Origin: an uncultured Candidatus Saccharibacteria bacterium
GTDB taxonomy: Bacteria > Patescibacteriota > Dojkabacteria > B142 > OLB20
NCBI GenBank assembly: GCA_964461915.1
Contig: CAYWVD010000001.1
Location: 407,205-471,204 of the forward strand
Reading direction: 5' to 3'
DNA: 64,000 nucleotides
The translations under genes and the position numbers were made by a program. Shown here one piece after another: positions 1-54,430 of the stretch; the first letter of the stretch is position 1, and each line of letters begins with the position of its first letter. Below the pieces are notes generated by a model that did not search any database, was not told where the DNA came from, and saw nothing but the letters and a program-made list of their open reading frames with translations.

Positions 1-331
1 TGCGATGTAGACTCTAAAACAACATATTCAATCCCTTGATCAGACATCATTTTTAAATATTTTGGAACAGACCATGGATCAGGGGTCGTTACATGAAAAC
101 CTGTATCGATTTCACGTTCTCCAATTTTCGCCGAGATGGTCGAAATATATCCGACTTTAAATCCGTTTTCTTTTAAAATATGATATATCATTTGAGTTGT
201 TGTGGTTTTCCCATCAGTACCAGTAACACCAATCAGCTTAAGCTTTCGTTGGGGGAAAGCATAATAAATGTTTGCGCTAACTGATTGCAGTAAGTGTAGA
301 AAATTTAAAATTTTATTCAACAAGTTTCTCA
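1..331 (-). CDS. Mur ligase family protein, N-terminal part (gene runs off window start); P-loop intact
   Basis: Reverse translation gives MRNLLNKILNFLHLL...RKLKLIGVTGTDGKTTTTQMIYHILKENGFKVGYISTI...TTPDPW...EYVVLESTSH: a Mur-ligase central-domain P-loop (GxxGKTT) and the TTP/E..SSH motifs. ATG at 329-331 overlaps the 3' end of the sigma factor gene by ~19 nt. Which Mur ligase (murE/murF/murD/MurT-like) cannot be decided from this fragment. Confidence 0.7.
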
Positions 332-909
332 TTTTGTTTTCGTATAATTAAAGTTCCGAGTTTTTTGCGAATTCTATGAAGCTTTGTTCCGATATTGGTT
401 TCGGTCAATCCAGTGATCTCGGAGATCTTACTATTGCTCATTTCTTCAAAGAATTTATAATAGATCAAATATTGCTCATCCTCATCAAGTTCCTTAATTG
501 CATTGAATAAAGCCAAATCTTCTTCATCCTTTTCGATTTCCATTTCTGCGTTAGGAGCAGTGGACTCAACCAAATTCACAATGTCATCAAATGATTTATC
601 GTTTTTGTATTTGTTATGTTTTCGATAATAGTCAATCAAATGGTTCCTAGCTATGCGGTAGATCCAAGCCCCGATGCTAATCCCTTGCCATTTAAAGTCT
701 TCAATGGTCTTGTATACTTTTTCAAAGACTTCAGAAGTCAGATCTTCTGCAGTTTCTTTATTTGTAACCTTTTTTTGCAGAAAATCCAAGATCTTTGGGT
801 AAAAGACTTTGTATAAGTTATCGAAGTCAGTCTTTTTATACTTACTTTTATTAACTATCTTATCTATTTGTTTTTGACTAAAACCTTCGATGGTAGCCCT
901 ATTTAACAA
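313..909 (-). CDS. ECF-type sigma-70 family RNA polymerase sigma factor
   Basis: Region 2 (AEDLTSEVFEKVYK...WIYRIARNHLIDYYRK) and region 4.2 HTH (MSNSKISEITGLTETNIGTKLHRIRKKL). About 198 aa, typical ECF size. Confidence 0.8.
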   Translation of the reverse strand: MLNRATIEGFSQKQIDKIVNKSKYKKTDFDNLYKVFYPKILDFLQKKVTNKETAEDLTSEVFEKVYKTIEDFKWQGISIGAWIYRIARNHLIDYYRKHNKYKNDKSFDDIVNLVESTAPNAEMEIEKDEEDLALFNAIKELDEDEQYLIYYKFFEEMSNSKISEITGLTETNIGTKLHRIRKKLGTLIIRKQNEKLVE

Positions 910-1698
910 TTAAGATTCTTCCTCATCTAAAGCTCCTCTTATGTTTTTAACTAGTTTTAGAGGCATTTCAAACTTTAATAAAGAGTATAAGGCTTCCAGA
1001 AGGGGTATGCCTTTAACTATTGCCACGGATAATGCCGCTGCAATACTTTCATATTTTATCATAGGAATAAATTGGGTTTGGACTTCGTATTCCTTCCCCT
1101 GGTATTTCACAATAAGCCTGTGCTGTTCTGCAATTCTAAAAAATAGATCCGATTTTTTTTCATCTTTATCGCCAAAGACAAATATTTTTTCATAATCACC
1201 AATAATCTTTTTAACTTCTGAAATATCTTTACTATTAACAATTATTGAGCCTGAATCCTTTTTTGTATTTTTTAATAAATTTTCTAAAATTTTCAAGTCT
1301 TTATTAAAGTGGGTCACAATTAATATATCCGGAGTCACAAATGAAGACCAAAATTTGGCTGTATCGTCTTTGGTATAGTTCAAATTCAAGATAATACTTT
1401 GGGGGTTTGAGCCTCCAAATAATAATCTAAAGCTTGATCTAATTAAAAGTATGATCCAGCCTAAAACAGATCTTTTTTTATCTTCATAGCCTAAAATCGT
1501 AAGCGGAACGGTAAAATCCCACCATGGACTACCGATCATTTTTCGTACATTGTATTTTGAATGGAGTAGGGTATAAGTCAAATCTTTGACTATACTAGTG
1601 TCATACCAGCCAGTTACAACAATCATTTCCATCTTGTGTTTTTTGATGGCACGCTCGGATAAGCTTTTAAGTTGTTGCTTTAAAATGAGTCTAAACAT
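910..1698 (-). CDS. MurF-like Mur ligase central domain only, truncated, with degenerate catalytic motifs (pseudo-enzyme or decaying gene)
   Basis: MIVVTGWYDTSIVKDLTYTLL aligns with MurF VTGSNGKTSVKEMTAAIL (P-loop GKT replaced by YDT). IGSPWWDFTVPLTIL ~ MurF NNDIGVPMTLL. LIVTHFNKDL ~ ITNI..DHLD. FIPMIKYESIAAALSVAIVKG ~ LPGRHN..NALAAAA.A..G. Lacks N- and C-terminal Mur ligase domains (262 aa). Stop abuts the sigma start codon (no gap). Confidence 0.55.
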   Translation of the reverse strand: MFRLILKQQLKSLSERAIKKHKMEMIVVTGWYDTSIVKDLTYTLLHSKYNVRKMIGSPWWDFTVPLTILGYEDKKRSVLGWIILLIRSSFRLLFGGSNPQSIILNLNYTKDDTAKFWSSFVTPDILIVTHFNKDLKILENLLKNTKKDSGSIIVNSKDISEVKKIIGDYEKIFVFGDKDEKKSDLFFRIAEQHRLIVKYQGKEYEVQTQFIPMIKYESIAAALSVAIVKGIPLLEALYSLLKFEMPLKLVKNIRGALDEEES

Positions 1699-1714: not shown

Positions 1715-2998
1715 TTATAATTTTATAATATCGGCGCCTAATTTGCGATAATTTTCAACTAAGTCTGGATATCTTCGCATTAAGGAATCCTCCGAATCTT
1801 CAAGGATGGTAGTGCCTTCGGCTGAAAGAGCAGCCAAAAAGAGAGCCATAGTTGCTTGAATTATATTTGGAGCTATTAATTTAGCAGCCTTGTATTCCGT
1901 TGGTCCAAAAGTAATTATCCTTAAAGGGTCGGCCATTATTACCTTGGCCTTCATTTTTGCTAATTCTTCAACAAAGAAGAAAGCATATTCATAAAATGAA
2001 TTGTGAAAAATTATACTACCTTTAGCTTTTAACGCTGCCACTACTGCAACATGAACAAAATCTGGTGGCAAAAATGGCCAAGCAAATGCTTTTACATCTA
2101 ATATGTCTCCTCTAACAGTCAAGGCACATTCCATTTTTTGATTTCCATCGATAACAATATCTTTGTCGTTAATTTTCACTTTAATTCCAATCTTTTCAAA
2201 GAATTGAAAAATCATCTGCATATGTTCGGGAATAGCATTTTTAATTGTAATTTGACCCTTAGTCATTGCAGCGGCAGCAATGTATCCACCAATATCCAAA
2301 TGATCAGGGATAACAGTCCATTCAACACCGCTAAGCTTTTCCACACCCTCAATAGTCAATTTATTTGAACCGATTCCATAAATTTTTGCTCCCATAGCAT
2401 TTAACATATTGCACAAATCCTGTGTATGCGGCTCGGATGCAGCATTATATATTTCAGTAATACCTTTGGTAAGCACAGCAAGCATTATTGTATTTTCAGT
2501 ACCGGTTACCGATGGAAACCATGACCAAATTTTAGTAGCATACAATTTATCAGCCTCAAGATAATATCCTTTTTCTCTAATATATTTTGCACCCATCTGA
2601 ACCATATTATCAATAAAGGCGTCTAGTGGTCTTGTCCCTAATTTACATCCGCCCGGCATGGGCATATGAGCTTTTTTAAACCTAACTAATAATGGGCCCA
2701 TAAACATTACTGAAGCTTTAGCTTTTTGTGAAAGGGCAGGATCCATCTCATAAGAATTCAAGTCTTTTGCAATTATTTTGACTGTACTTCCTCCATCCAG
2801 GTAAGAAATTTTTCCCCCCAATTGCTTTACAATTTTTAGCATCAAACGGACATCTGAACTTTTAGGGACATTTCTGATAATCACAGGCTCATCCGTTAAT
2901 AATGCAGCGGGGATTAGCTTTAAGATTGAATTCTTATTTGGTACAGGTTCAATAACACCCTTTAATGGTTTACCACCAACTATTTTGTATGTAGCCAT
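1715..2998 (-). CDS. murA: UDP-N-acetylglucosamine 1-carboxyvinyltransferase
   Basis: MATYKIVGGKPLKGVIEPVPNKNS...PVIIRNVP..SDV; catalytic Cys in GGCKLGTRPLD; full-length EPSP-synthase fold, 427 aa. Confidence 0.9.
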   Translation of the reverse strand: MATYKIVGGKPLKGVIEPVPNKNSILKLIPAALLTDEPVIIRNVPKSSDVRLMLKIVKQLGGKISYLDGGSTVKIIAKDLNSYEMDPALSQKAKASVMFMGPLLVRFKKAHMPMPGGCKLGTRPLDAFIDNMVQMGAKYIREKGYYLEADKLYATKIWSWFPSVTGTENTIMLAVLTKGITEIYNAASEPHTQDLCNMLNAMGAKIYGIGSNKLTIEGVEKLSGVEWTVIPDHLDIGGYIAAAAMTKGQITIKNAIPEHMQMIFQFFEKIGIKVKINDKDIVIDGNQKMECALTVRGDILDVKAFAWPFLPPDFVHVAVVAALKAKGSIIFHNSFYEYAFFFVEELAKMKAKVIMADPLRIITFGPTEYKAAKLIAPNIIQATMALFLAALSAEGTTILEDSEDSLMRRYPDLVENYRKLGADIIKL

Positions 2999-3046
2999 TT
3001 TTAAAATTTTTTTAAAAAGTTAATTATATTAAACGAAATTTTCTTT

Positions 3047-4870
3047 TTAATATGACGGAACTTTAAGATAATCTTTGATTGCCATAAAAGTATCAAGCCA
3101 AAGGATACGGGCATTATATGAAGAAAGTTCTCCAACTTGCGGTTTTTCTAGTTTCAATAACATCACAAAAGTCTTTTCAGGCGAAGCATCAAATCCCATA
3201 AATGTTGCATTGATCTCACTTGAATAACCGGCTCTATCGGTATATGGGATAAGAGCAGTCCCGGATTTTAATCCTATATCATATTTTGCTAATCCTTTAT
3301 ATTTTTTTTCTATCAATTGATTTAAATAGACTTTATGCATAAGGGCTTGCATTGTTTCCGCAGTTTCAGTTTTGATTGGCTTTGCTATAACCTTGGGATT
3401 AAAAACAGTAGAGTTACCATTAGCATCAACAACTTTTTCAACAATATATGGTTGCATTCTGTATCCATCATTGACTATTGCTCCATATCCTGTAATTGCT
3501 TCTAATGGAGTCATAGAGTAACCATGTCCATAAGAATATACTGCCTGATCAGCATAATTCCATTTAGTATAGTCTTTTAGATTTGCATAAGATTCATCTG
3601 GCAAATCGATCCTAGTGGGTTCACCAGCTCCGAATCCTTTTAGATATGAGTAAAATTCTTTATAAGACATTGTTAATGCAATGTGTCTAAATGCAATGTT
3701 ATCGGAACCTGTTAAAGCCCCTGTTACATCAATTAAATTTGTAACTCTCTTCCTGTTGTATGTACAAATACAGTCAACAATTTTGCCCGTATCTTTATTG
3801 CTTTCGGGGTTCCTGCAATTATAGTTGGGAACAGGATCAGGACTTATAATTTCGCATCCATCATGTCCATTTGGTAAAAGAACAGTATCCGGCGTAATCC
3901 GCCCTAAATCTAATGCCGATGCTAAAGTAAAAGCCTTAGCTACTGAGCCTATTTCATATGGTGTTGATATTGATTTGTTCCCAAATGCCTCGAAATCTTC
4001 AACTTCATAATATTTATTTGGATCATAATTTGGATAGTTACCCATAGCCAAAATGGCCCCGGTTTTAGGATCCATAATTATTCCCGTAACAGAAGTGGTT
4101 TGGAATTGAATATATCCTTCTTGGAGTTTTTGTTCGAGAATTGCCTGTAAAGTTTTATCGATTGTTGTATAAACTGTCGATCCTTGTTGAGATTCAACAT
4201 AATCAGAATCTGACACAGTAATAGGATTCCCAAAACTATCAAACTCGGATGAAGCCATACCTTCAATGGGCTTTAAAGTTCCATCCCAATATTGTTCGAT
4301 TCCCCAAACACCCTTTGCTTCTTCATCATAAAGCCCAACATATCCTAGTAATTGGCTTGCCATTCTGCCTTCCGGATAGACTCTTCTGTTTACATATTCA
4401 AATTGGATTCCGGAAATATATTTTCCAGAGATATCACTTTTCAAATCTAAAAGGGCATTTTTAGCTTCTAAAGATATTTTAGTCCCAATTTTTATCCATA
4501 ACGCTTTTGACTCGAATTTTGCTTTTAACTCTTCTTCTGGGATTTCAAGTATAGTACTCACTTTTGAATAGAATTCGTTCCTAGTTTGATCGCCACGACT
4601 TTCCGCGGATTGAATCTCTGGCAACCAAATGAACACATTGTATCTCGGTTCCGAGAAGGCTAGGGTAGAGCCATCTTTCGCAAGTATACTCCCACGAATA
4701 GATGGTAATTTAATATCCTTGTACCTTTCATTAGCAATGGCAACATATTTTTCACTATCGAAGATTTGCCAGTTGGCACTTAAGGCCACAATGGCTAGAG
4801 CTAAAACTATGAATAATATTCGAACTATTTTTACCTTTTTCTTTTGTATCTCATTAATTGCTAAGTCCAT
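3047..4870 (-). CDS. ftsI: Class B penicillin-binding protein / FtsI-type peptidoglycan transpeptidase
   Basis: N-terminal TM helix, PBP dimerisation region, transpeptidase motifs SVAK (SxxK), SDN (SxN), KSGT (KTG); follows ftsL in the dcw cluster. Confidence 0.85.
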   Translation of the reverse strand: MDLAINEIQKKKVKIVRILFIVLALAIVALSANWQIFDSEKYVAIANERYKDIKLPSIRGSILAKDGSTLAFSEPRYNVFIWLPEIQSAESRGDQTRNEFYSKVSTILEIPEEELKAKFESKALWIKIGTKISLEAKNALLDLKSDISGKYISGIQFEYVNRRVYPEGRMASQLLGYVGLYDEEAKGVWGIEQYWDGTLKPIEGMASSEFDSFGNPITVSDSDYVESQQGSTVYTTIDKTLQAILEQKLQEGYIQFQTTSVTGIIMDPKTGAILAMGNYPNYDPNKYYEVEDFEAFGNKSISTPYEIGSVAKAFTLASALDLGRITPDTVLLPNGHDGCEIISPDPVPNYNCRNPESNKDTGKIVDCICTYNRKRVTNLIDVTGALTGSDNIAFRHIALTMSYKEFYSYLKGFGAGEPTRIDLPDESYANLKDYTKWNYADQAVYSYGHGYSMTPLEAITGYGAIVNDGYRMQPYIVEKVVDANGNSTVFNPKVIAKPIKTETAETMQALMHKVYLNQLIEKKYKGLAKYDIGLKSGTALIPYTDRAGYSSEINATFMGFDASPEKTFVMLLKLEKPQVGELSSYNARILWLDTFMAIKDYLKVPSY

Positions 4871-4890
4871 GCTCCTAATCCAATGTAAGT

Positions 4891-5178
4891 TTAATCCATT
4901 GCAGAAATATTTAGTTCATCAGGATTCAAAAAAACAATATTCTTTTGTTGTAAATTTTTATCTTCTGATAACCCTTCTAAAACGACTTTATTTGAACGAA
5001 GTTCCAGTATTTGAGCCTTAAGGATTTCATTTTCAACCTTTAATTGATTTTGTTGGCTTCGGATATCACTTAATTGTTGTCCATTTGTACCAACAGTAGA
5101 GAGTATGAATAATTGTGAAGATACAGCGATTACTAGGAGTAATCCAATTGTAATAAACCAGATATTAAATTTTTTCAT
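4891..5178 (-). CDS. ftsL: FtsL/DivIC-like cell division protein (N-terminal TM + coiled coil)
   Basis: 95 aa; N-terminal TM (IWFITIGLLLVIAVSSQLFIL) followed by coiled coil (QNQLKVENEILKAQILELRSN); located between rsmH and ftsI, the canonical ftsL position. Confidence 0.6.
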   Translation of the reverse strand: MKKFNIWFITIGLLLVIAVSSQLFILSTVGTNGQQLSDIRSQQNQLKVENEILKAQILELRSNKVVLEGLSEDKNLQQKNIVFLNPDELNISAMD

Positions 5179-5189
5179 ATGGCAGTATT

Positions 5190-6116
5190 TTAAATTTTAC
5201 TTATAGCCCTTAATTTTGCGCTATGACTTTTGGAGTTATGTGCAATCTCCGTCACGCTAGGCTTAAGTAATTTAGTTAAATAGTTAATTTTATTAGTGCT
5301 TTCTAAATTATTAAAAAATTCTTTGACAATTCTATCTTCACCGGAATGGAAGCTAATGATGACCATCCTACCTCCCGGGGCCAGTGCTTCGAAAGCCTGG
5401 GGCAGCAATTGCTTTAGATTGTATAATTCGTGATTAACAGCAATTCGCAAGGCTTGAAACACTTTGGCCTCAGGATGCTTATTTGTACCTGTGCGCGATT
5501 TGAAAGGTACAATTTTCTGAATAATTTCCCTTAGCTTAGTAGTTGTGTTTATAGGACTTTCTAATCTTGTTTGTATAATTTCTTTACTGAGTCTTTTTGC
5601 AAAAAAAACATCTCCAAGCTCGAAAAACAATTTTTCTAATTCATTTTGATATAAGCCATTGAGTAAATCAGAGGCTTTAACGGTCAAACCTTTTTCCATC
5701 CTCATATCTAGCTCTGCATCTTCTAAATAGCTTATTCCTAAGCCACTTTTATATTGATCCGTTGCTAGACCAAGATCAGCTAAAACTCCATCGATTTTTT
5801 CGATCTTATGGATTTTTAAAACTTCTTCAAGTTCAGAAAAGTTCCTATTTGATAGAATTATTGTTAAAGAGCTGTCGCTTTTTACAAAGTCCCCATCTAC
5901 TCCCTTAAACTCTCCAAACAATTCCTTTGCATTTTCAATTGATTTTGAATCTTTATCTAACCCTATTAATATTCCTTTATTATTTAATTTGTTTAAAATT
6001 TCTTTAAAGTGTCCTGCACCACCCAAAGTAACATCGACTATGACTTTTCCCTCACTTACCCCCAACAATTCTATTGCCTCTGATAGCATTACTGGCACAT
6101 GTTTGTATTCATTCAT
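5190..6116 (-). CDS. rsmH: 16S rRNA (cytosine1402-N4)-methyltransferase
   Basis: N-terminus HVPVMLSEAIELL...VIVDVTLGGAGH typical of RsmH/MraW; position after mraZ. Confidence 0.9.
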   Translation of the reverse strand: MNEYKHVPVMLSEAIELLGVSEGKVIVDVTLGGAGHFKEILNKLNNKGILIGLDKDSKSIENAKELFGEFKGVDGDFVKSDSSLTIILSNRNFSELEEVLKIHKIEKIDGVLADLGLATDQYKSGLGISYLEDAELDMRMEKGLTVKASDLLNGLYQNELEKLFFELGDVFFAKRLSKEIIQTRLESPINTTTKLREIIQKIVPFKSRTGTNKHPEAKVFQALRIAVNHELYNLKQLLPQAFEALAPGGRMVIISFHSGEDRIVKEFFNNLESTNKINYLTKLLKPSVTEIAHNSKSHSAKLRAISKI

Positions 6117-6118
6117 TT

Positions 6119-6544
6119 CTATTTACTTAATAATTGTTCAGCAAGATCAGGCGCAGTTTTAATGATCTCAGCCAATTTGTTTTCCCATGAACTTTTATCC
6201 CAAATCTCCACCCAATCCTTAATTGCAATAAAAACGACATCCGATTTTATTTGCGCATAGGTCAAAAGACTATTTGGTAGAACAAACCTTCCTTGGGAAT
6301 CTAATTCCAGCTCAAAGGCGCCACCAAAAATAAATCTTTTTGTATCTCGAAGACTTAGAGATAAAATCGATTTCTCATTTATTAAATTTTCAAATGACGA
6401 CCATCCGGCCTTATCCATTAACAAGAGACAACCTTCGTAACCCCTCGACAAAAATAATCCGTCTTTTAACTCGTCTCTAATTTTTTTTGGTATGGCTAAT
6501 CGATTTTTATCGGTTAACCTACCATCGAATTCACCTATCAACAT
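6119..6544 (-). CDS. mraZ: Transcriptional regulator MraZ
   Basis: MLIGEFDGRLTDKNRLAIPKKIRDEL matches the MraZ N-terminus (MFxG...D.KGR..IP...R). The ORF-track start at 6622 adds 26 non-conserved residues; the internal Met at ~6544 is the likely start. Two SpoVT/AbrB-like halves. Confidence 0.85.
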   Translation of the reverse strand: MLIGEFDGRLTDKNRLAIPKKIRDELKDGLFLSRGYEGCLLLMDKAGWSSFENLINEKSILSLSLRDTKRFIFGGAFELELDSQGRFVLPNSLLTYAQIKSDVVFIAIKDWVEIWDKSSWENKLAEIIKTAPDLAEQLLSK

Positions 6545-6659
6545 GGTGGGAAATATGATGATGTAGAAGTTTTGAAGCAGTGTAGAACTTGTAGCAAAAA
6601 TACTTAATAGTGCAGGATCCAAAAATAATTATGTTTATTTTTGGTTTTGTATTTAGTTT

Positions 6660-6839: not shown

Positions 6840-8273
6840 ATGTCTATCTATACAAAACTAATTGCCTTCTTCGGGATTCTCATCGCAATTTTTTCACTTT
6901 TAATCGGAATCTTTGCCTATCGATATGCGACTGATGTCACATCTTGGCAAATCCGAGACAACACAATTACGGAAAAAGATTTCTCTGACGATCTTAAGGT
7001 CAAGTTAGTACTAGAAAATGGCCAAACAATTAATGCAAATATTGTAAAACCCGACACGGTAATAATGGGCAACATAAAGGGGATTAATACCACAGAAGAT
7101 GGATATGTGAGAATTATCACCAAGGACAATGAACTCGTTTTCGATCCTATGAGTATAATTTTAACTGATGATAATTTTAAAGACGATTCAATCACAGGAT
7201 CAAAAATTAAAGACAATTCTCTAAATGGCTTGGATATAATCGACTACACAATACAAACAACAGATCTTGCTGATTCAAGTATAAATTCACAAAAGATCCA
7301 AGATGGATCACTTGGATTAAACGATGTAAATTTCAAAGTGTTAAGTTCCATTAATGGGATTGTTAGAAATGGTCAAAACATTGATATCATTGGATCAAAC
7401 GGTATCGATGTCATTAACGACTATCAAAATGGGAAAATATTTCTCAATTTAAAATCCCAAATTATCCCTGGGACTTTTACCAATGCAGACACCCTTGATA
7501 ATTTAGATAGCACTTACTTTTTAGACCTCGGTAATATTCAAAAAGGTACTCTGCAAGATCAATTCTATTCTGCTTATTCAGATTTATTTGTAGAAGGGAA
7601 GCTAAATTACGATGCAGATGGCGACCTTATTACTAAGGCAATGTTGGAAAATTACAATCTTTCATTCAAAGAAGCAATTGTTAGAAATAACTTGACTGTT
7701 AAAGGCGACTTAACTGTTGATGGAGACCTATTATTCTCCGGTGCAATCGGATATAACAATTTAATCTTGAGCCCAAAGAGCGGTGAATTTGCCATTCAAG
7801 TCGTCAAAGATTCTGTAAATCAATTTACAATCGATTCACTTGGAAACTTAGTCGCAAATGGAAACATTAATTTAAAGGGGACTTTAGAAACTGCGAATTT
7901 TAAAGATTTAGATGCCACACTCATCAATGCTTTAAATCAGATGGATGCGCAAGATAGAAAAATCAATGATATATCAAAAAAATTGTCTGATTTATCCGAG
8001 ATTGTCCGAGACAATGAATCTAACACCATTTCGGGTAGCGTAAACTGCTTGCCTACTTCGGCAGACATTGAAGAAAGATGCGAAGTTAACGCACCTCAAA
8101 ACAGGACATTTAAATCCATTGTATTTTCGGCACAAAACTCATATAGACCCGTATTTGGATATTTAAAAAAGACACCATTCGGAGAAAATTCTGCTGAGGT
8201 ATTCATTTATTCAGCCACTGGAGTACCAACATATCACACGAAACTATTCTATGTGGCTACTTTGAACGATTAG
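6840..8273 (+). CDS. Membrane-anchored surface protein with phage-tail-fibre-like repeats (hypothetical)
   Basis: N-terminal TM (LIAFFGILIAIFSLLIGIFAY), then degenerate repeats DDSITGSKIKDNSLNGLDI / DSSINSQKIQDGSLGLNDV (I..SKI.DgSL motif), beta-rich G/N/D-rich segments (NLTVKGDLTVDGDLLFSGAIGY), a C-terminal coiled coil and CxxxxxxxxC. Possible extended -10 TGATACAAT at ~6799-6807. Confidence 0.5.
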   Translation: MSIYTKLIAFFGILIAIFSLLIGIFAYRYATDVTSWQIRDNTITEKDFSDDLKVKLVLENGQTINANIVKPDTVIMGNIKGINTTEDGYVRIITKDNELVFDPMSIILTDDNFKDDSITGSKIKDNSLNGLDIIDYTIQTTDLADSSINSQKIQDGSLGLNDVNFKVLSSINGIVRNGQNIDIIGSNGIDVINDYQNGKIFLNLKSQIIPGTFTNADTLDNLDSTYFLDLGNIQKGTLQDQFYSAYSDLFVEGKLNYDADGDLITKAMLENYNLSFKEAIVRNNLTVKGDLTVDGDLLFSGAIGYNNLILSPKSGEFAIQVVKDSVNQFTIDSLGNLVANGNINLKGTLETANFKDLDATLINALNQMDAQDRKINDISKKLSDLSEIVRDNESNTISGSVNCLPTSADIEERCEVNAPQNRTFKSIVFSAQNSYRPVFGYLKKTPFGENSAEVFIYSATGVPTYHTKLFYVATLND

Positions 8274-13849: not shown

Positions 13850-14737
13850 ATGAAAGTCAAGAAAGCCGTTATTACTGCCGCCGGATTTGGGTCGAGATTT
13901 TTACCATTCGTAAAAAACATTCCAAAGGAAATGCTTCCGATCATTAACAAACCTTCAATCCAATATCTAGTTGAAGAATGTAGAGTAGCTGGGATTGAAG
14001 AAGTTATTATTGTCACAAGAGACGAACATAGCCTTATTCAGGACTATTTCACGAAACCCGCACCAGATGTAAAAGCATTATTAGATATGCAGGGCAAATC
14101 TGAACGATTCACAGAAGTTGAAACTGTTTTAACCATGGAAAATATTAAATTTATTCAACAAGATGCCAGCCTTCCTTATGGAAACGGCTCGCCAGTTTTA
14201 TCGGCAAAAGATTATTTAACGCCGGGCGAGCCTTTTGCTTTGCTATTTGGAGATGATATGGTATTAAGCGAAAATTCAAATGCCTTAAAACAATTGGTCG
14301 ACTTTTTCGAAGTTACTGATTGCGATGCAGTTTTGGCCGTTCAAAAAACTCCAACTCACGAACTGAATCGATATGGAGTTGTTAAACCCTCTGAGTATCA
14401 TGAAGAAGAAAAATGGGGTGTATTTGAATACCTTGTAGAAAAACCAAAAGTCGAAGAAGCTCCTTCTGATTTAGTATCCTATGGTCGAATGATATTGCCA
14501 TATAAAGTTTTTGAATATCTTATCCCGACAGCAACTGGAAAAGATCAAGAATTATGGCTTCAAGATGCTAATGATAAACTTTCGAGAACAACCAGATTCT
14601 TGTTCAGGATAATCGATGGGGAATGGATGACAACCGGCGATCCTATCAGATATCTAAAAGCTCAGATAAAATACTATTTAACAAATCCAAAATTCAGCGA
14701 GGATACAAAAGCATTAATTCGGGAAACTTTAGTTTAA
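13850..14737 (+). CDS. galU: UTP--glucose-1-phosphate uridylyltransferase-type sugar nucleotidyltransferase (GalU family)
   Basis: MKVKKAVITAAGFGSRFLPFVKNIPKEMLPIINKPSIQYLVEE matches the GalU N-terminal signature. Confidence 0.75.
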   Translation: MKVKKAVITAAGFGSRFLPFVKNIPKEMLPIINKPSIQYLVEECRVAGIEEVIIVTRDEHSLIQDYFTKPAPDVKALLDMQGKSERFTEVETVLTMENIKFIQQDASLPYGNGSPVLSAKDYLTPGEPFALLFGDDMVLSENSNALKQLVDFFEVTDCDAVLAVQKTPTHELNRYGVVKPSEYHEEEKWGVFEYLVEKPKVEEAPSDLVSYGRMILPYKVFEYLIPTATGKDQELWLQDANDKLSRTTRFLFRIIDGEWMTTGDPIRYLKAQIKYYLTNPKFSEDTKALIRETLV

Positions 14738-15892: not shown

Positions 15893-15915
15893 GGTTTTTA
15901 ATATATTTCAAATAT

Positions 15916-22612: not shown

Positions 22613-23617
22613 TTATATCTTGACTATCTTAACTTTTGCTAAGGATTCTAAATCTTTAGCGCCTGTTACGAACATTGCGATTTCCAATTCCTTTTTATAC
22701 TTCATAATCTCTTCATAAACCGCATCCGAAGCTTCTAAAGCAGGTTTTAGTAAAGGCTTTGCAGAACTTGCTAGTTTTGCCCCAAGGGCAATTGATTTTG
22801 CGATGTCGAGTCCTGATCTTACTCCGCCTGAAGAAATCATATTTATATTTTTTAAGTTTTTCAGTTGAATCAGGGATTCAGTTGTCTCTATTCCCATTTC
22901 TTCAAAAGCAAATCCTATATTATCTTCTCGTCTAAAACTTTCTACCGAAGTCCAACTTGTTCCACCAAGTCCGGCGACATCGATCCATTGGATCCCAATT
23001 TCAGAAAGACTTTTTGCGGTTTCAAAATCAATTCCGGATCCTACCTCTTTAATAAAAACAGGTTTCTTAATTTGAGGAAGAATTTGCTTAAGTTTACTAA
23101 TTAAATCTTTGAAATTTGTATCGCCTTCGGGTTGAATGGCTTCTTGCAAGTGATTAATATGCAAAAATATCCCATCAGCTTCGATAGAATCTATCAATTT
23201 ATTGATCTCTTTTACTCCATAACCATAATTCAATTGAACCAATCCCATATTTGCAAGTAGAGGAACACTTGGACAATATTCCCTGACATCAAAACTCGAA
23301 AAAGTTGAAGGGTCTTTTAAAATTGCCCTCATTGAACCTAAGGCTAAAGCAACCTTGGCTTTTTCTGCAGCGATCGCTAAGTTTTTATTGATGTCTTTAG
23401 CCTTATCAGCTCCACCAGTCATCGAAGCGATCAAAAATGGGAATGAAAGATTTTTCCCTAAAAAAATAGTTTCAGTAGAAATTTCACTTTTATCAATTTC
23501 AGGTAAGGCTTTATATGCTAATCTATATTTTTTGAAAGAAGATTCTATAGGTTCAACTTTTTCTTCTAAAACAATTTTTATATGTTGGACCTTTCTATCA
23601 GAAATTATTTGTTTCAC
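22613..23617 (-). CDS. fni: Isopentenyl-diphosphate delta-isomerase, type 2 (FMN-dependent)
   Basis: TIM-barrel IDI-2 signatures (FPFLIASMTGG; GVRSGLDIAKSIALGA); 334 aa. Confidence 0.85.
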   Translation of the reverse strand: MKQIISDRKVQHIKIVLEEKVEPIESSFKKYRLAYKALPEIDKSEISTETIFLGKNLSFPFLIASMTGGADKAKDINKNLAIAAEKAKVALALGSMRAILKDPSTFSSFDVREYCPSVPLLANMGLVQLNYGYGVKEINKLIDSIEADGIFLHINHLQEAIQPEGDTNFKDLISKLKQILPQIKKPVFIKEVGSGIDFETAKSLSEIGIQWIDVAGLGGTSWTSVESFRREDNIGFAFEEMGIETTESLIQLKNLKNINMISSGGVRSGLDIAKSIALGAKLASSAKPLLKPALEASDAVYEEIMKYKKELEIAMFVTGAKDLESLAKVKIVKI

Positions 23618-23715
23618 TTTTCGTTAATATAATCATTAGTTTAATCAACCGTTATTATATCATTTTATTTAGTGCAAAATTTGCTAGAATAGTATTTGAG
23701 TATTATTAATAAGCT

Positions 23716-40393: not shown

Positions 40394-41020
40394 CTAGACT
40401 TTATATGATGGGCAAATCTTGCCCAGAGGACATTCTTTACAATTTGGTTTTCTGGCAAAACAATACCTTCTGCCGTGAGTTATTAGAACATGCGTAATAT
40501 TTCTCCAATCCCTTTGATCATATTCCGCCATCAAATCCAGTTCGATTTTTTTAGGATCATTATGCTTCGTTAATCCTAATTTATTTGATAGCCTTTTTAC
40601 ATGGGTATCAACAGCAATCCCTTCGTTGATATTAAAGGCTTCAGATAAAACTACATTAGCAGTTTTTCTAGCCACTCCAGGGATCGTTATTAATTCTTCC
40701 ATAGTACTCGGGACTTTCCCTTGAAAAGAATCTACAACTTTCATAGCAGCCGCTTTAATATACCTGGCTTTGTTTTTATAGAATCCTGTTGAGAAAATTA
40801 ATTTTTCTAATTCGCTTAGATCAATATCAATATAATCTTCGACATTTGGATACTTTTCAAATAAAGCGACAGTCACTTTATTAACTCTTTCGTCAGTACA
40901 TTGAGCGGAAAGAACAGTAGCTACCAACAATTGCCATGGGGATTCAAAGTTCAAAGCACATTTTATTTCAGGGTAAAATTTCATCAAAGTATCAAGTATT
41001 TTTTTTGAATATTTTGCCAT
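40394..41020 (-). CDS. nth: Endonuclease III (DNA-(apurinic or apyrimidinic site) lyase)
   Basis: HhH-GPD (TIPGVARKTANVVLSEAF), catalytic Lys/Asp, C-terminal 4Fe-4S cluster C-x6-C-x2-C-x5-C (CFARKPNCKECPLGKIC). Confidence 0.85.
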   Translation of the reverse strand: MAKYSKKILDTLMKFYPEIKCALNFESPWQLLVATVLSAQCTDERVNKVTVALFEKYPNVEDYIDIDLSELEKLIFSTGFYKNKARYIKAAAMKVVDSFQGKVPSTMEELITIPGVARKTANVVLSEAFNINEGIAVDTHVKRLSNKLGLTKHNDPKKIELDLMAEYDQRDWRNITHVLITHGRRYCFARKPNCKECPLGKICPSYKV

Positions 41021-41033
41021 AATTCTTGGTGGT

Positions 41034-50409: not shown

Positions 50410-51102
50410 TCAAAAAACAGTTCCATTACTCAATCGATTTTCGAGTAATTCGTTTTCATTTTTTACTTTTAGGAATTTTTTAGGTGGTATATATCCAGAC
50501 ACAGAGGCTAGAGTACTTATCAAGGAATCCTTCCCTATCATTGTCCCGGGCGAACTCATTACGCCTCCGCCTAATCTTGATCTTTCTCCTAAAATTATTC
50601 CAAGTTTATCTAGTCCAGTTTGAAGTTTTGTACCGTTATATGAAAATTCAATTGGCTTTTGGTCAAACCGGCGATTTGCTGTTTCGGTATGGCCACCGAG
50701 CCTTGCTTCGACACCAATAATACTATCTCCTAAAAATGTATGATTAGCTATTTTCGATCGTTCCATCATAATTGAATTTTTCACTTCAGCAGCATGGCCT
50801 ATAGAACATCCCTTTGAAATTATACTTCCGGGACGAATATTGGCATGAGGACCTATTTCTACATCATCATCAATATATACCGGCCCTTCAATTACGACAT
50901 AGGGAGATATCTTGCAATTGTGGCCGATATAAACTTTTCCAGTTGTAATTAGCGTTGGTTCGTTTGAATTAATTTCGCTATCAAGGATTTGTTCCTCTAA
51001 GATTCTCTTTAAACTCCCAATTACTAGATACCAATTATCCTTCTCAAATTCAGGTTTTAAAAATTCTGGAAGAAGAATTTGATCGAAAAAATCCGTGATC
51101 AT
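50410..51102 (-). CDS. Left-handed beta-helix (hexapeptide-repeat) acetyltransferase homologous to the GlmU C-terminal GlcN-1-P acetyltransferase domain
   Basis: AEVKNSIMMERSKIANHTFLGDSIIGVEARLGGHTETANRRFDQKP...GERSRLGGGVMSSPGTMIG aligns with GlmU VEVKNS.IG.GSK.NHL.YVGDSEIG...GAG.IT.NYDG.NK. No nucleotidyltransferase domain in the same ORF. Confidence 0.65.
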   Translation of the reverse strand: MITDFFDQILLPEFLKPEFEKDNWYLVIGSLKRILEEQILDSEINSNEPTLITTGKVYIGHNCKISPYVVIEGPVYIDDDVEIGPHANIRPGSIISKGCSIGHAAEVKNSIMMERSKIANHTFLGDSIIGVEARLGGHTETANRRFDQKPIEFSYNGTKLQTGLDKLGIILGERSRLGGGVMSSPGTMIGKDSLISTLASVSGYIPPKKFLKVKNENELLENRLSNGTVF

Positions 51103-51128
51103 AATTTATTCTTAAAAATTTTAATTTA

Positions 51129-52487
51129 TTAACTTAACTCTTCTTTACATATTTTCACAAGATCATTACCAACTTCTTCGAGTTTACCTTCTTCACGCGC
51201 TTCTACCATGATTCTTAAAAGATTCTCTGTCCCAGAATATCTTAAGAACACTCGGCCTTCGCCTTTGAATTCGTCGGTCCAATATTTGATTCTATCCTGG
51301 AGCCTTTCAATATCTTCTAAATCCTTTTTTTCTTGGACCTCAACATTGAAAACTTTTTGAGGGAATTTTTCAAAAGTATAAGCTAATTCACTCAAAGTTT
51401 TTCCTTTCTCTTTGATAATTTTCAAAACTTGCAATGCTGTTAAAGTCCCATCTCCCGCATCTGAATAGTCTAAGAAAATAAAATGGCCTGTAGCCTCACC
51501 ACCGAAATTAAGTTTTTCCTTTCTCAATAGTTCAGTAATAGCCCTATCTCCATTAACGACCTTTAATACATTAATACCTGCTTTTTCGAGTTCTTTAACT
51601 AAAGCTAAATTACTGTATTCGGTGATTACTACAGAATTTTTCTTTAATTCTCCTACCTCTTTAAAATATTTGGCAATTAAGGCTGTAATATAATTCCCAT
51701 CAATTTCATTCCCTTTTTCATCTATCATAATGACTCGATCAGCATCTCCATCAAGCGCTATACCAAGATCAGCCTTATTAGCCAAGACAGCCTCTTTCAC
51801 TTTTTCCGGGTAAAGTGATCCACAATCAACATTAATGTTATAACCGTTCGGCTCAATATTAATTGGGATGACTTTGGCGCCGAGTTCTGAAAATACATCA
51901 GGAGCGGTTTTATAGGCGGCGCCATTTGCGCAATCAACAACTATCGTTAAACCTTTTAAAGATGTTGATCCAATTGCGTGTTTTATATATTCCACATATC
52001 TTCCAGAGACATCTTCGAATCTTTTAGCTCTACCAATCTGATCAATTCCTTCAAAACCATTCTTGAAGTATACATCTTCTATTTCGAGTTCTTCTTCATC
52101 GGTTAGTTTATGGCCATTTGGGTTAAAAACTTTGATTCCATTATCATAATAAGGATTATGTGATGCAGTAATCATAATACCCATATCTAGAGCATAGCTT
52201 TTTACCAAATGGGAAATTGCAGGAGTAGGCATTGGCCCAACAGTTATAACATCAACTCCCCGACTCAAAAAACCTGCGGTTAAAGTTTGTTCTAACATAT
52301 AGCCGGACCTTCTGGTATCCTTCCCAATAATCACTTTATAACCACGATTTGGATTAGGAGCAACAGTTTTTTTTACATATTCAGCTAACGATTTACCTAA
52401 GCGAAGTACTGTTTCTGTGTCTAATGGGGCGTAATTGGCTTTTCCTCTTACTCCATCAGTTTCTCTAAATAGTTGTTTCTTCCTCAT
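51129..52487 (-). CDS. glmM: Phosphoglucosamine mutase
   Basis: Active-site loop GIMITASHNPYYDNGIK, four-domain phosphohexomutase; between glmS and the GlmU-like genes. Confidence 0.85.
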   Translation of the reverse strand: MRKKQLFRETDGVRGKANYAPLDTETVLRLGKSLAEYVKKTVAPNPNRGYKVIIGKDTRRSGYMLEQTLTAGFLSRGVDVITVGPMPTPAISHLVKSYALDMGIMITASHNPYYDNGIKVFNPNGHKLTDEEELEIEDVYFKNGFEGIDQIGRAKRFEDVSGRYVEYIKHAIGSTSLKGLTIVVDCANGAAYKTAPDVFSELGAKVIPINIEPNGYNINVDCGSLYPEKVKEAVLANKADLGIALDGDADRVIMIDEKGNEIDGNYITALIAKYFKEVGELKKNSVVITEYSNLALVKELEKAGINVLKVVNGDRAITELLRKEKLNFGGEATGHFIFLDYSDAGDGTLTALQVLKIIKEKGKTLSELAYTFEKFPQKVFNVEVQEKKDLEDIERLQDRIKYWTDEFKGEGRVFLRYSGTENLLRIMVEAREEGKLEEVGNDLVKICKEELS

Positions 52488-52545
52488 ATTTTAGACTTTT
52501 TAATAGTATATTGTTTTTTATGTTAACTTAAATACCAATTTTTTT

Positions 52546-54321
52546 CTACTTTACCGTAACACTTTTAGCAAGGTTTCGGGGTTTATCTGGACTATTTCCA
52601 AGATGAACACCCAAAAAGTAAGAAAGCAATTGAAAGGGGATTACATTCGGAATCGAATCAATCCCATTAGAGCTAATATCAACTGTTTTAATGAAATCAT
52701 TAAATAATTCGTTACTGGATTTCCCAATGCCAACGACATAGGCTCCACGGGCCTTTACTTGGGCTGCAGCACTCAACATATCGTTTTTATATTCATCCTC
52801 ACTGACAATTACAAAAACTGGTGTACCTTTATCGATTAAGGCTATTACTCCATGTTTTAATTCGCCAGCAGAAAATCCCTCAAAGTGTTTATAGGTAATT
52901 TCTTTGACTTTTAATGCGCCTTCTAAGGCTAGATAATAGTTTTGACCTTTTCCCAAGACAAAAAAGTGTTCTTTTTTGGCCATTTTTTTTGCAATTGATT
53001 GCATTTGGCTTAATAGTTTTTTTGAAAAATAGTTTTGAAGTTTATCGCTAATCTCCATAATTTCTTTTCTCGCTTGATTATATTGATCTGCGATGGCCAT
53101 AGCTAAAACAAAGCCCCAGCTAATTTGAGAGGTAAAGGCTTTTGTAGAAGCGACACAAATTTCGGGACCGGATCTGGAATAATAGGGGAAGTCACTAATT
53201 CTAGTAATGGTTGATCCGAGCATATTTACTAAACTCGCGACCTTTACTCCACTAGCTTTAGCTATTTCAAGTGCCTCAATAGTATCGGCAGTTTCGCCAC
53301 TTTGGGAGATTCCGATGATCACATCGTTTGGCTCAAACAGACCTCTGTAGCTATCAATATCATAAGATTTTAATTCTATGACATTTATTCCAGAAATTTT
53401 TCTTAAAAAATATGCAATCTGACCCGCAGCAAAACCGGCAGTTCCTGCTCCAACGGTATATACATGTCTTGCTTTTTTTATTGCTTTTATAAGGGGTTCG
53501 TATTCTGCCTCAGTATATTGAGCCGCTTCTCGGATAGTATGTTTCTGTTCAATTATTTCTTTGATCATAAAATGGTCATAACCCTCTTTTGCAATACTCA
53601 TATCTTCTTGTTCGATTTTATGCTCTTTGACTTTGATCTCGGTCCCACTTTCTACTTCAAACATTTTTAATTGGCCGTCATGATAAGCAACCATTTCGTA
53701 GTTATTGATGTAAACAACACGATTAGTAAAATTCGCAAAAGATAAGGTATCCGAAGCAATAAATACTTCTTTTTCACCAACACCAACCACAAGTGGAGAA
53801 CCGTTCCTAACTGCATAAATTGTCGAACCGGTCGTAGGTAGTACAATAATTGTATTTCTTCCTTCCAGATCTAAAAAGGCAAGCCTCACAGCCTTAAACA
53901 AATCCTTAGTTTTCTTTAGTTTTTCCTCAATAAGTCTAACAATAACTTCAGTATCTGTTTGCGAACTAAACTTATATCCTTTTTTTAAAAGATCTTCTTT
54001 AAGTTTCTGAAAATTCTCAACAATTCCATTTTGGGCAACAACAAAAGATTTATCTGTTGAAAAATGTGGATGGGCATTAACATTCGTAACTCCCCCGTGT
54101 GTGGCCCAACGGGTATGTCCGATTCCAATATTGGAATGGGGAAGTTTCTCAAGCTCTTTCAAGTCTCCAATAGCCCCAACCTTTTTAACAACCTCAATAC
54201 CTTCGGGATCAACTACAGCTACCCCCCAAGAATCATAACCTCGATATTCTAATCTTTTTAAGCCTTCAATAATTGTTTTTGCAGCATCACGCTTGCCAGA
54301 GTATCCAAAAATTCCGCACAT
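52546..54321 (-). CDS. glmS: Glutamine--fructose-6-phosphate aminotransferase (isomerizing)
   Basis: N-terminal nucleophile MCGIFGY, two SIS domains, C-terminal ...VTVK; 591 aa. Confidence 0.9.
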   Translation of the reverse strand: MCGIFGYSGKRDAAKTIIEGLKRLEYRGYDSWGVAVVDPEGIEVVKKVGAIGDLKELEKLPHSNIGIGHTRWATHGGVTNVNAHPHFSTDKSFVVAQNGIVENFQKLKEDLLKKGYKFSSQTDTEVIVRLIEEKLKKTKDLFKAVRLAFLDLEGRNTIIVLPTTGSTIYAVRNGSPLVVGVGEKEVFIASDTLSFANFTNRVVYINNYEMVAYHDGQLKMFEVESGTEIKVKEHKIEQEDMSIAKEGYDHFMIKEIIEQKHTIREAAQYTEAEYEPLIKAIKKARHVYTVGAGTAGFAAGQIAYFLRKISGINVIELKSYDIDSYRGLFEPNDVIIGISQSGETADTIEALEIAKASGVKVASLVNMLGSTITRISDFPYYSRSGPEICVASTKAFTSQISWGFVLAMAIADQYNQARKEIMEISDKLQNYFSKKLLSQMQSIAKKMAKKEHFFVLGKGQNYYLALEGALKVKEITYKHFEGFSAGELKHGVIALIDKGTPVFVIVSEDEYKNDMLSAAAQVKARGAYVVGIGKSSNELFNDFIKTVDISSNGIDSIPNVIPFQLLSYFLGVHLGNSPDKPRNLAKSVTVK

Positions 54322-54430
54322 ACTTTTTTATTTATAAAAAATATTAATATAATTTATCATAACTTCCCTAACGCCATCTTACACTCATAATTACATTTAA
54401 GAAAATTTTTTAATGATATAATAAACGAGT

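What the first reader, a model, noticed from the sequence alone, without database searches (positions are those of the whole stretch)
313..1698. Truncated, catalytically degenerate MurF-like protein translationally coupled to an ECF sigma factor inside the dcw cluster
The 262-aa ORF at 910-1698 aligns along its length with the central (ATP-binding) domain of MurF. The invariant residues are replaced: the P-loop GxxGKT(S/T) reads GWYDTS, and the DHLD/RHN-type motifs are degenerate. It lacks both the N-terminal and C-terminal Mur ligase domains. It sits where murE/murF normally lie (after ftsI). Its stop codon abuts the start of an ECF sigma factor gene, which in turn overlaps an intact Mur ligase gene. 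ECF sigma factors are normally paired with a sensor or anti-sigma partner, and none of the usual type is present. A ligand-binding pseudo-Mur-ligase could plausibly act as a cell-wall-precursor sensor or regulator for the sigma factor, or it is simply a decaying duplicate. Either way it is not an annotated arrangement I recognise.
Basis: partly seen in the sequence, partly recalled or inferred. Interest (0 to 1): 0.62.

Follow-up and report, generated by a model that had tools for sequence, protein, structure and literature searches.

The report
Dead MurF copy paired with sigma factor
A catalytically dead, shortened copy of the cell-wall enzyme MurF is always encoded directly in front of an alternative sigma factor in these tiny-genome (Patescibacteria/CPR) bacteria, which suggests an undescribed enzyme-derived regulator of cell-wall precursor genes.

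Summary

It is not a pseudogene. About 120 cluster representatives of 200-300 aa lack the P-loop Lys, in at least two differently truncated forms. The frame is intact in every locus examined, and pN/pS is 0.16 in the closest pair.

In all 17 distinct loci of the window's type and all 22 loci of the second type, the gene abuts or overlaps an orthologous ECF sigma gene. This holds even where the pair has moved away from murE. One sigma ortholog lacks it.

A conserved ECF-like promoter motif (GTAAT-N16-CGTT) precedes the operon that carries the pair. In the window it also precedes glmS-glmM-glmU.

Best reading, inferred and not shown: a MurF-derived pseudoenzyme that partners and regulates an autoregulated ECF sigma controlling early peptidoglycan-precursor genes. 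No description was found in Pfam, NCBIfam or the searched literature.

The parts
910..1698 (-). Pseudo-MurF (called X here), 262 aa. It has the Mur-ligase central-domain fold plus an N-terminal helix. The P-loop Lys, Mg-Glu, His and carbamyl-Lys segment are lost, and there is no C-terminal domain.
313..909 (-). ECF-type sigma factor, 198 aa if it starts at TTG 909. The start abuts the stop codon of X in the same frame, with GAGGA about 10 nt upstream.
   Evidence: Pfam Sigma70_r2 and r4_2. TIGR02937 above cut-off. Gene callers use this TTG on 6 contigs. 148 ortholog clusters, all Dojkabacteria/WS6/Patescibacteria where named.
1..332 (-). 5' part of murE. The ATG is at 332-330, it overlaps the sigma gene by 20 nt, and it runs off the window. 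The full protein is 449 aa in L001.
   Evidence: TIGR01085, 368 bits, cut-off 257.
1715..2998 (-). murA (UDP-GlcNAc 1-carboxyvinyltransferase). It is the first gene of the murA-X-sigma-murE block, 16 nt upstream of X.
   Evidence: Pfam EPSP_synthase, E 7e-67. Conserved order in 15 distinct loci of this type whose sequence reaches upstream of X.
3032..3056 (-). Candidate ECF-type promoter of the murA-X-sigma-murE operon. GTCAT (3056-3052), N16, CGTT (3035-3032), with 33 nt between CGTT and the murA ATG.
   Evidence: Sequence. The same bipartite motif lies upstream of murA in 11 of 14 related loci (0.06 expected from shuffles). 14 of the 17 ORF-proximal hits in 314 kb of loci lie in front of murA or X.
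54370..54394 (-). Second well-placed copy of the motif. GTAAT (54394-54390), N16, CGTT (54373-54370), with 48 nt between CGTT and the glmS ATG.
   Evidence: This is a single genome, and conservation elsewhere was not testable.
50410..54321 (-). glmS (52546-54321), glmM (51129-52487) and a GlmU-like hexapeptide acetyltransferase (50410-51102). This UDP-GlcNAc supply operon is a putative second target of the sigma factor.
   Evidence: Pfam GATase+SIS, PGM_PMM I-IV and Hexapep/Hexapep_GlmU. ORFs.
23601..23625 (+). Near match to the motif, about 90 nt upstream of mraY. GAAAT-N16-CGTT followed by AATATAAT, as at murA. Weak, with one mismatch in the -35 part.
   Evidence: mraY identified by phmmer.
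3047..6622 (-). Upstream dcw genes: ftsI (3047-4870), an ftsL-like 95-aa ORF (4891-5178), rsmH (5190-6116) and mraZ (6119-6622 as the longest ORF).

Best explanation
X is a MurF-derived pseudoenzyme, not an enzyme and not a pseudogene. It forms a conserved two-gene module with an ECF sigma factor in Patescibacteria.

Shown:
- X keeps the Mur-ligase central fold but has lost every residue needed for ATP-dependent ligation, and the D-Ala-D-Ala-binding C-domain.
- X is under purifying selection.
- X is always encoded immediately upstream of the same sigma ortholog, abutting or overlapping it, whatever the wider context.
- An ECF-like bipartite motif (GTAAT/GTGAC/GTCAT-N16-CGTT) sits at promoter distance in front of the operon that carries the pair.

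Inferred:
- The two proteins are made together from one mRNA and bind each other.
- X controls the availability or activity of the sigma factor. Most likely it acts as a cytoplasmic anti-sigma-like partner. Its MurF-derived pocket may still recognise a UDP-MurNAc-peptide precursor.
- The sigma factor transcribes its own operon (murA-X-sigma-murE) and the UDP-GlcNAc operon glmS-glmM-glmU, and perhaps mraY.
- This would give feedback control of the early, cytoplasmic steps of peptidoglycan precursor synthesis.
For: Dead enzyme. In P0011 numbering, the residues invariant in 20 genuine short MurFs are changed in X. K37 (P-loop) becomes T34 and E108 becomes N105. H140 and K154 fall in a 12-aa deletion. 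D172 becomes K157. The C-domain is absent. All 41 family hits of 400 aa or more with the exact G-K-[ST] motif also keep the Mg-binding Glu; one further long protein (P0173) reads GKG. By contrast, 117 of 125 hits of 200-300 aa lack the Lys.

Selected. The frame is intact in every locus. For the window versus the 82%-identical relative, pN is 0.114 and pS is 0.722. The library search gave 374 hits at E<=1e-10.

Linkage to sigma.
- Sigma directly follows X in all 17 distinct loci of the window's type.
- The same holds in all 21 metagenome loci of the second type that extend far enough, and in L016.
- The sigma reading frame opens from about 150 nt before to about 20 nt after the end of X.
- In the second type, the pair stands alone. 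It is divergent from mraY or murE and convergent with murA-ftsI, so X stays with sigma, not with murE.
- X was never seen without sigma, whereas one sigma ortholog (L026) has no X.
- X evolves about 1.6 times faster than sigma, as accessory regulators usually do.
- No canonical anti-sigma gene lies nearby.

Promoter. The motif is found upstream of murA in 11 of 14 loci (0.06 expected) and upstream of X in 5 of 15 second-type loci (0.08 expected). Fourteen of the 17 ORF-proximal hits in 314 kb are in front of these genes. In the window, the only other well-placed hit precedes glmS-glmM-glmU.

Precedent. The MurE homolog PAP11 is a subunit of the plastid bacterial-type RNA polymerase. It appears among the fold hits (PMC11561172).
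Against: - No physical interaction could be computed.
- X has no anti-sigma domain. It lies upstream of sigma, whereas most anti-sigma genes lie downstream.
- Conserved adjacency is also what a co-regulated cell-wall protein would show.
- The promoter regex was written after seeing the data. It is absent or only approximate in two thirds of second-type loci, and it is not enriched over the whole window (5 hits against 4 expected).
- The glmS site rests on a single genome.
- The ATP site is destroyed and no ligand-binding evidence exists.
- One sigma ortholog functions without an adjacent X (L026).
Confidence: 0.5

Rival explanations
1. X is a non-catalytic scaffold or allosteric subunit of the cytoplasmic Mur machinery (MurE, MurA or the real MurF). 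It merely belongs to the same operon or regulon as the sigma factor and does not act on sigma.
For: X keeps the Mur-ligase fold and sits among murA, murE and mraY. Mur ligases are known to assemble, for example in the MurE-MurF complex 8f5d (PMC10214165). The mirror-tree correlations of X with MurE and MurA are about as high as with sigma.
Against: In second-type loci, the only invariant neighbour is sigma. murE, murA and mraY change position and strand. The gene overlap is specifically with sigma. X was never found without sigma in about 39 loci.
Confidence: 0.25
2. X is a positive cofactor. It would be an RNA-polymerase- or sigma-associated subunit needed for holoenzyme function at these promoters (as with PAP11 in the plastid polymerase), rather than an inhibitor or sensor.
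For: PAP11 (a MurE homolog) binds the beta' clamp of a bacterial-type polymerase and is essential for its activity. It is among the fold matches. X lies upstream of sigma and is co-translated with it, which is atypical for anti-sigma factors.
Against: PAP11 uses C-terminal folds that X lacks. There is no evidence of polymerase contact. One sigma ortholog exists without X.
Confidence: 0.12
3. X still has an enzymatic role with different chemistry, for example an ATP-independent transferase or hydrolase acting on UDP-MurNAc-peptides.
For: There is strong conservation of new residues: H21, W59-W60-D61, W81 and W117. The second type keeps the Glu of LVLE and a rump of the C-domain.
Against: All known catalytic residues are lost together, and the two types have lost different parts. 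No Mur-fold enzyme without a P-loop is known to me (own knowledge).
Confidence: 0.05
4. X is a decaying duplicate of murF, that is, a pseudogene that gene callers still pick up.
For: The catalytic motifs are degenerate and the protein is truncated.
Against: The frame is intact at a constant length of about 250-265 aa in lineages down to about 30% identity. pN/pS is 0.16. The AF2 model is confident. Hundreds of cluster representatives exist.
Confidence: 0.01

Closest known systems
MurF (UDP-MurNAc-tripeptide--D-Ala-D-Ala ligase), short Patescibacterial form (e.g. P0011, 429 aa)
   Different: X has no P-loop Lys, Mg-Glu, His or carbamyl-Lys segment, and no C-terminal domain. It fails the Pfam PF08245 and TIGR01143 cut-offs. 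It is always followed by a sigma gene, which the real murF of L013 is not.
ECF sigma / anti-sigma pairs (e.g. Bacillus subtilis SigM-YhdL/YhdK, SigW-RsiW; cytoplasmic RsrA-SigR). Own knowledge.
   Same: There is an ECF sigma with a co-transcribed, faster-evolving partner gene. The promoter is autoregulation-like, of the GxAAY-N16-CGT type. The targets are cell envelope genes, and the SigM regulon likewise includes peptidoglycan synthesis genes.
   Different: The partner has a Mur-ligase fold, with no anti-sigma domain, no zinc motif and no membrane segment. It lies upstream of sigma. Binding has not been shown.
[quoted passage not shown]
   Same: It is a Mur-ligase homolog recruited to a bacterial-type transcription machine, with a non-peptidoglycan role. 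It was recovered among the fold matches (8r6s_Q, 9epc_Q, 8xzv_J).
   Different: PAP11 is a full-length MurE homolog that contacts beta' through extra C-terminal folds. X is a MurF derivative lacking the C-domain, it is bacterial, and it is linked to a sigma gene rather than known to be a polymerase subunit.
MurE-MurF fusion and complex (8f5d)
   Same: Mur-fold proteins encoded side by side and acting as an assembly (PMC10214165).
   Different: Both halves of that fusion are active ligases, and no sigma factor is involved.

Membership tests
Mur ligase family / MurF | Sequence homology to the Mur ligase central domain | tested here: met
   hhalign 100%, E 4.7e-39 against 20 real MurFs. The family profile hits real MurFs at E 1e-17 to 1e-22.
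Mur ligase family / MurF | Passes the curated models (Pfam PF08245 gathering score; NCBIfam TIGR01143 cut-off 288.6) | tested here: not met
   There is no Pfam hit for X, and 0 of 38 family members reach PF08245 (best E 0.12). TIGR01143 scores 33 bits.
Mur ligase family / MurF | ATP-binding P-loop G-x-x-G-K-[ST] | tested here: not met
   X reads G-W-Y-D-T-S. 117 of 125 family proteins of 200-300 aa lack the Lys, while 41 of the 42 proteins of 400 aa or more match G-K-[ST] exactly (the exception, P0173, reads GKG).
Mur ligase family / MurF | Mg-binding Glu, catalytic His and carbamylated-Lys position | tested here: not met
   E108 becomes N105. H140 and K154 lie in a 12-aa deletion. That K154 is the carbamyl-Lys position is own knowledge, by analogy with MurD H183 and K198.
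Mur ligase family / MurF | C-terminal domain (PF02875) that binds the incoming amino acid | tested here: not met
   X ends at the domain boundary.
Mur ligase family / MurF | Three-dimensional fold of the central domain | tested here: met
ECF sigma factor (the downstream gene) | Sigma regions 2 and 4 only, passing the ECF model | tested here: met
   PF04542 and PF08281. TIGR02937 scores 107 bits against a 42.9 cut-off. No named subgroup model passes.
Anti-sigma factor (class I ASD / ZAS type) | Anti-sigma domain or zinc-binding HxxxCxxC motif | tested here: not met
   No Pfam or NCBIfam anti-sigma hit. The fold is Mur ligase.
Anti-sigma factor (functional sense) | Co-transcribed with the cognate sigma and co-inherited with it | tested here: met
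   Abutting or overlapping genes in about 39 loci of two types.
Anti-sigma factor (functional sense) | Direct binding to sigma regions 2/4 and inhibition of transcription | not testable with these tools
No experiment was possible.
Pseudogene | Frameshifts or stops in relatives and relaxed selection | tested here: not met
   Intact ORFs of constant length. pN/pS is 0.16 in the closest pair, with pS saturated.

The most novel reading that the evidence does not exclude
Patescibacteria (CPR) would use a previously unrecognised class of cytoplasmic ECF-sigma regulator: a Mur-ligase pseudoenzyme descended from MurF. It would read the pool of UDP-MurNAc-peptide precursors. Through its co-translated sigma factor it would feedback-control glmSMU, murA and murE, the entry steps of peptidoglycan synthesis. 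The module is ancient in the radiation and exists in at least two differently truncated forms.
Probability: 0.3. Interest if true: 0.85.

Novelty: new variant of a known kind. Interest (0 to 1): 0.68.

Why it matters
How cytoplasmic peptidoglycan-precursor synthesis is matched to demand is poorly understood in most bacteria. It is essentially unknown in the CPR/Patescibacteria, whose reduced genomes carry very few regulators.

A conserved, compact module would give a directly testable regulatory circuit for these uncultured organisms. Its parts are an enzyme-derived sensor candidate, an ECF sigma and a recognisable promoter in front of glmSMU and murA-murE. All of them can be expressed heterologously.

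It would also add a new fold to the list of sigma-factor partners. It would be a bacterial counterpart to the plant case in which a Mur ligase homolog (PAP11) was recruited to the plastid RNA polymerase.

Practically, a family of at least 117 sequence clusters now annotated "hypothetical protein" without any Pfam domain can be named.

Tried and rejected
- **Co-folding X with sigma.** No interaction model could be made.
- **Mirror-tree comparison** of X, sigma, MurA and MurE distances over 13 loci. It does not discriminate: r = 0.67, 0.58 and 0.61, with similar partial correlations.
- **Pfam, PDB phmmer and PDB profile searches.** The first two gave nothing for X. The PDB profile search was only marginal (MurF, E 0.04).
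- **Locus scan with the 38-sequence alignment.** It was too diverse to seed a scan. The 10-sequence alignment found only 8 genome loci.
- **afdb50 fold library.** Not available.
- **Literature.** The ECF reclassification paper does not mention Mur ligases or CPR in its main text, and its supplements are not held. Searches combining ECF, Mur ligase, Patescibacteria, pseudoenzyme and dcw found nothing relevant.
- **Single-box search** for TTTCGTTTAAT in the window. Not enriched: 10 matches against 6 expected. The bipartite motif is also not enriched window-wide (5 against 4). Its significance comes only from its position in front of murA and X across loci.
- **Search for a genuine murF in the window's own genome.** None was found in the 64-kb window or the 10 kb beyond it. 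The rest of the 808-kb genome could not be reached. A MurF-type ligase with an intact P-loop does coexist with a second-type pseudo-MurF on contig L032; L031 holds only a C-terminal fragment of one, cut by the contig end.
- **Pseudogene reading.** Rejected (see rival explanations).
Full report
**What is in the sequence.** On the minus strand the window carries these genes:
- mraZ (6119-6622)
- rsmH (5190-6116)
- a 95-aa ftsL-like ORF (4891-5178)
- ftsI (3047-4870)
- murA (1715-2998)
- the 262-aa ORF X (910-1698)
- an ECF-type sigma gene (313-909)
- the start of a Mur ligase (ATG 332) that runs off the window

X ends with TAA at 912-910. The next codon, TTG 909-907, lies in the same frame, and gene callers used it as the sigma start on six independent contigs of this organism. 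A GAGGA sits about 10 nt upstream of it. The sigma ORF overlaps the ligase by 20 nt. The full 449-aa ligase, taken from a 173-kb contig of the same organism (L001), is MurE (TIGR01085, 368 bits, cut-off 257). The sigma factor has regions 2 and 4 only and passes the general ECF model but no named subgroup.

**X is a MurF derivative.** Simple searches miss the relationship:
- Pfam gives no hit, and none of 38 family members reaches PF08245.
- phmmer against the PDB gives nothing.
- NCBIfam gives only a weak partial murF match (E 2.5e-8, residues 9-76).

Profiles and structure settle it:
- A profile of ten X homologues was searched against 1.84 billion representatives. It gave 1069 hits at E<=1e-3 and 374 at E<=1e-10. 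Among the best 150 listed are 402-449-aa proteins with intact P-loops, matched over profile positions 1-253 at E 1e-17 to 1e-22.
- hhalign of 38 X-family sequences against 20 such MurFs gives 100% probability and E 4.7e-39. X columns 4-269 align with MurF columns 7-294 of 440.
- An AlphaFold2 model of X is confident (pLDDT 93.2, pTM 0.90).
- Its best Foldseek matches are MurF crystal structures (E 2e-10 to 1e-8, TM 0.62-0.70).

**X cannot be a ligase.** Several residues are invariant in the 20 genuine MurFs (P0011 numbering). In X they are changed as follows:
- The P-loop Lys K37 becomes Thr34, so GSVGKT reads GWYDTS.
- The Mg-binding Glu108 of LVLE becomes Asn105.
- His140 and Lys154 fall in a 12-residue deletion.
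- Asp172 becomes Lys157.
- The protein stops at the boundary of the C-terminal domain.

Lys154 lies 14 residues after the His. That is where MurD carries its carbamylated Lys; this assignment is my own knowledge, by analogy.

The "missing N-terminal domain" is not a loss specific to X. The closest real MurFs and the neighbouring MurE also begin 25-30 residues before the P-loop.

**X is a conserved family, not a decaying gene.**
- Homologues of 249-265 aa occur down to about 30% identity. Where named, they are "hypothetical protein" of Candidatus Dojkabacteria (WS6) or Patescibacteria, with no Pfam domain.
- I tabulated 178 family members. All 41 proteins of 400 aa or more with an exact G-K-[ST] P-loop also keep the Mg-binding Glu; one further long protein (P0173) reads GKG. 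By contrast, 117 of the 125 proteins of 200-300 aa lack the Lys.
- Besides the window's type (GW[YT][GD]T and WWD[FL]S[VI]PL), there is a second type of 260-299 aa. Its motifs are G[DSN]G[QE]TS and RRNxExPEAEFSVPL. It keeps the Glu and a rump of the C-domain but has lost the middle of the central domain.
- There is also a third subgroup of about 230 aa ("YGWDW"), which I did not follow.
- For the window versus its 82%-identical relative, pN is 0.114 and pS is 0.722, which is saturated. This gives pN/pS of 0.16, similar to rsmH and murE in the same pair.
- Over longer distances X evolves about 1.6 times faster than sigma, MurA or MurE.

**The invariant neighbour is the sigma factor.**
- I annotated every fetched locus with phmmer/hmmsearch. 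In all 17 distinct loci of the window's type, X is directly followed by the orthologous sigma gene. The usual order is murA-X-sigma-murE.
- A scan of JGI metagenomes with the second-type alignment returned 24 loci. In all 21 that extend far enough, the pseudo-MurF is again followed or overlapped by the same sigma family. The same holds on a 1.1-Mb Patescibacteria contig (L016).
- In those second-type loci the pair stands alone. It is divergent from mraY or murE and convergent with murA-ftsI. So the linkage is to sigma, not to murE.
- In every case the sigma reading frame opens between about 150 nt before and about 20 nt after the last codon of X. That leaves no room for a separate promoter.
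- X was never found without sigma. One sigma ortholog (L026, 43% identical) is followed by murE but has no X or X remnant upstream.
- The closest genuine MurF (P0011) lies in the order mraZ-rsmH-ftsL-ftsI-murF with no sigma. This fits an origin of X from a murF copy at that position.
- Contig L032 carries a MurF-type ligase with an intact P-loop and His about 2 kb from a second-type pair (L031 carries a C-terminal fragment of one, cut by the contig end). So at least there the pseudo-MurF is an extra paralog and not a replacement.
- For the window's own genome, no real murF lies within the window or the 10 kb beyond it. The rest of the genome was out of reach.

**A promoter-like motif.**
- Upstream of murA, a T[TG]CGT box is found 33-52 nt before the ATG in 11 of 12 loci of the window's type, although the intergenic regions are otherwise unalignable.
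- With a -35-like part, this becomes G[TC][GAC]A[TCA]-N16-CGTT. It is present upstream of murA in 11 of 14 loci (0.06 expected, at most 2 in 2000 shuffles).
- It is present upstream of X in 5 of 15 second-type loci (0.08 expected).
- In 314 kb of non-redundant loci it occurs 32 times. Seventeen hits lie 5-120 nt before an ORF, and 14 of those precede murA or X.
- The form resembles ECF promoters such as those of Bacillus SigX and SigM (TGTAAC/TGCAAC-N17-CGxx; own knowledge).
- In the window the motif lies at 3056-3032.
- The only other well-placed copy lies at 54394-54370, with 48 nt between its CGTT and the ATG of glmS. glmS is followed by glmM and a GlmU-like acetyltransferase.
- A one-mismatch copy with the same CGTTAATATAAT tail lies about 90 nt before mraY.

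Three caveats apply. The regex was written after seeing the data. The motif is not enriched over the whole window (5 hits against 4 expected). The glmS and mraY sites rest on one genome.

**Interpretation.**

Shown: X is a selected, catalytically dead MurF paralog that is obligately co-encoded with an ECF sigma factor across two structural variants and many lineages. A conserved ECF-like motif precedes the operon.

Inferred: X and sigma are co-translated and interact. X modulates sigma. The sigma factor autoregulates murA-X-sigma-murE and also drives UDP-GlcNAc synthesis. The attractive version is a precursor-sensing anti-sigma. X descends from the enzyme that binds UDP-MurNAc-tripeptide, so it could report precursor accumulation and close a feedback loop on the entry steps of the pathway.

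I could not test binding.

The main rival is a non-catalytic Mur-complex subunit that merely shares the operon. A positive, PAP11-like polymerase cofactor is also possible. PAP11 is a MurE homolog that is an essential subunit of the plastid bacterial-type polymerase. It shows up among the fold matches.

**Novelty.** Pfam and NCBIfam have no model for the family. Source annotations say "hypothetical protein". The ECF reclassification paper and targeted full-text searches gave no description of a Mur-ligase-like partner of an ECF sigma. I therefore rate it a new variant of a known kind: an ECF sigma with a cognate partner, where the partner is a pseudoenzyme of a fold not previously seen in that role. 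The functional claim is still unproven.

Noticed in passing
window 50410-54394 (-): A glmS-glmM-glmU-like operon is preceded by GTAAT-N16-CGTT. This is the same bipartite motif found in front of murA-X-sigma-murE, which makes the operon a possible second target of the sigma factor.
   Followed up: partly
window 23601-23625 (+), upstream of mraY (ATG about 23716): A one-mismatch copy of the motif (GAAAT-N16-CGTT), followed by AATATAAT exactly as at murA.
   Followed up: partly
window 1-332 (-) / L001 11367-12716; P0011 and other MurFs: The genuine MurE and MurF of these Patescibacteria start only 25-30 residues before the P-loop. They therefore lack the canonical N-terminal UDP-binding domain of Mur ligases. 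MurF instead has an N-terminal helix and an inserted helix after PLTILG.
   Followed up: partly
L032 278-1738 (+): A MurF-type ligase with an intact P-loop and His but an N-terminal hydrophobic stretch of about 50 residues, possibly a membrane anchor. It lies about 2 kb from a second-type pseudo-MurF-sigma pair. It scores below the TIGR01143 cut-off (158 bits against 288).
   Followed up: partly
L016 10001-11345; L029-L051: A second, differently truncated pseudo-MurF type (260-299 aa; RRNxExPEAEFSVPL). It keeps the Glu and a rump of the C-domain (DATYYYxP). It is also always followed by the ECF sigma, as a stand-alone pair next to mraY, murE, murA and ftsI.
   Followed up: yes
proteins P0085, P0087, P0089, P0095, P0115, P0116, P0132, P0159, P0160: A third subgroup of about 230 aa with the motif YGWDW[ST]E in place of the P-loop. 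Its genomic context was not examined.
   Followed up: no
L026 6001-7857: One sigma ortholog (43% identity; GCA_054920935.1) is followed by murE but has no X gene or remnant upstream. Only about 1.3 kb with three small opposite-strand ORFs separates it from the preceding 820-aa gene.
   Followed up: partly
L020 (LNGD01000166.1) and sigma P0187: A contig and protein labelled Candidatus Methanofastidiosum (an archaeon) carry the bacterial murA-X-sigma block at about 62% identity to the window. This is probably a mis-binned Patescibacteria contig in an archaeal MAG.
   Followed up: no
window 6840-8273 (+): A 477-aa ORF with an N-terminal transmembrane helix and no Pfam domain. It keeps its position between mraZ and dnaE in relatives (439-477 aa in L001, L009 and L010).
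   Followed up: no
window 14732-17214 (-), 40977-42497 (+): murG and ftsW lie apart from the mraZ-ftsI block, and there is a second SEDS gene. No murC, murD or murF lies within the window, so the dcw cluster is fragmented in this genome.
   Followed up: partly
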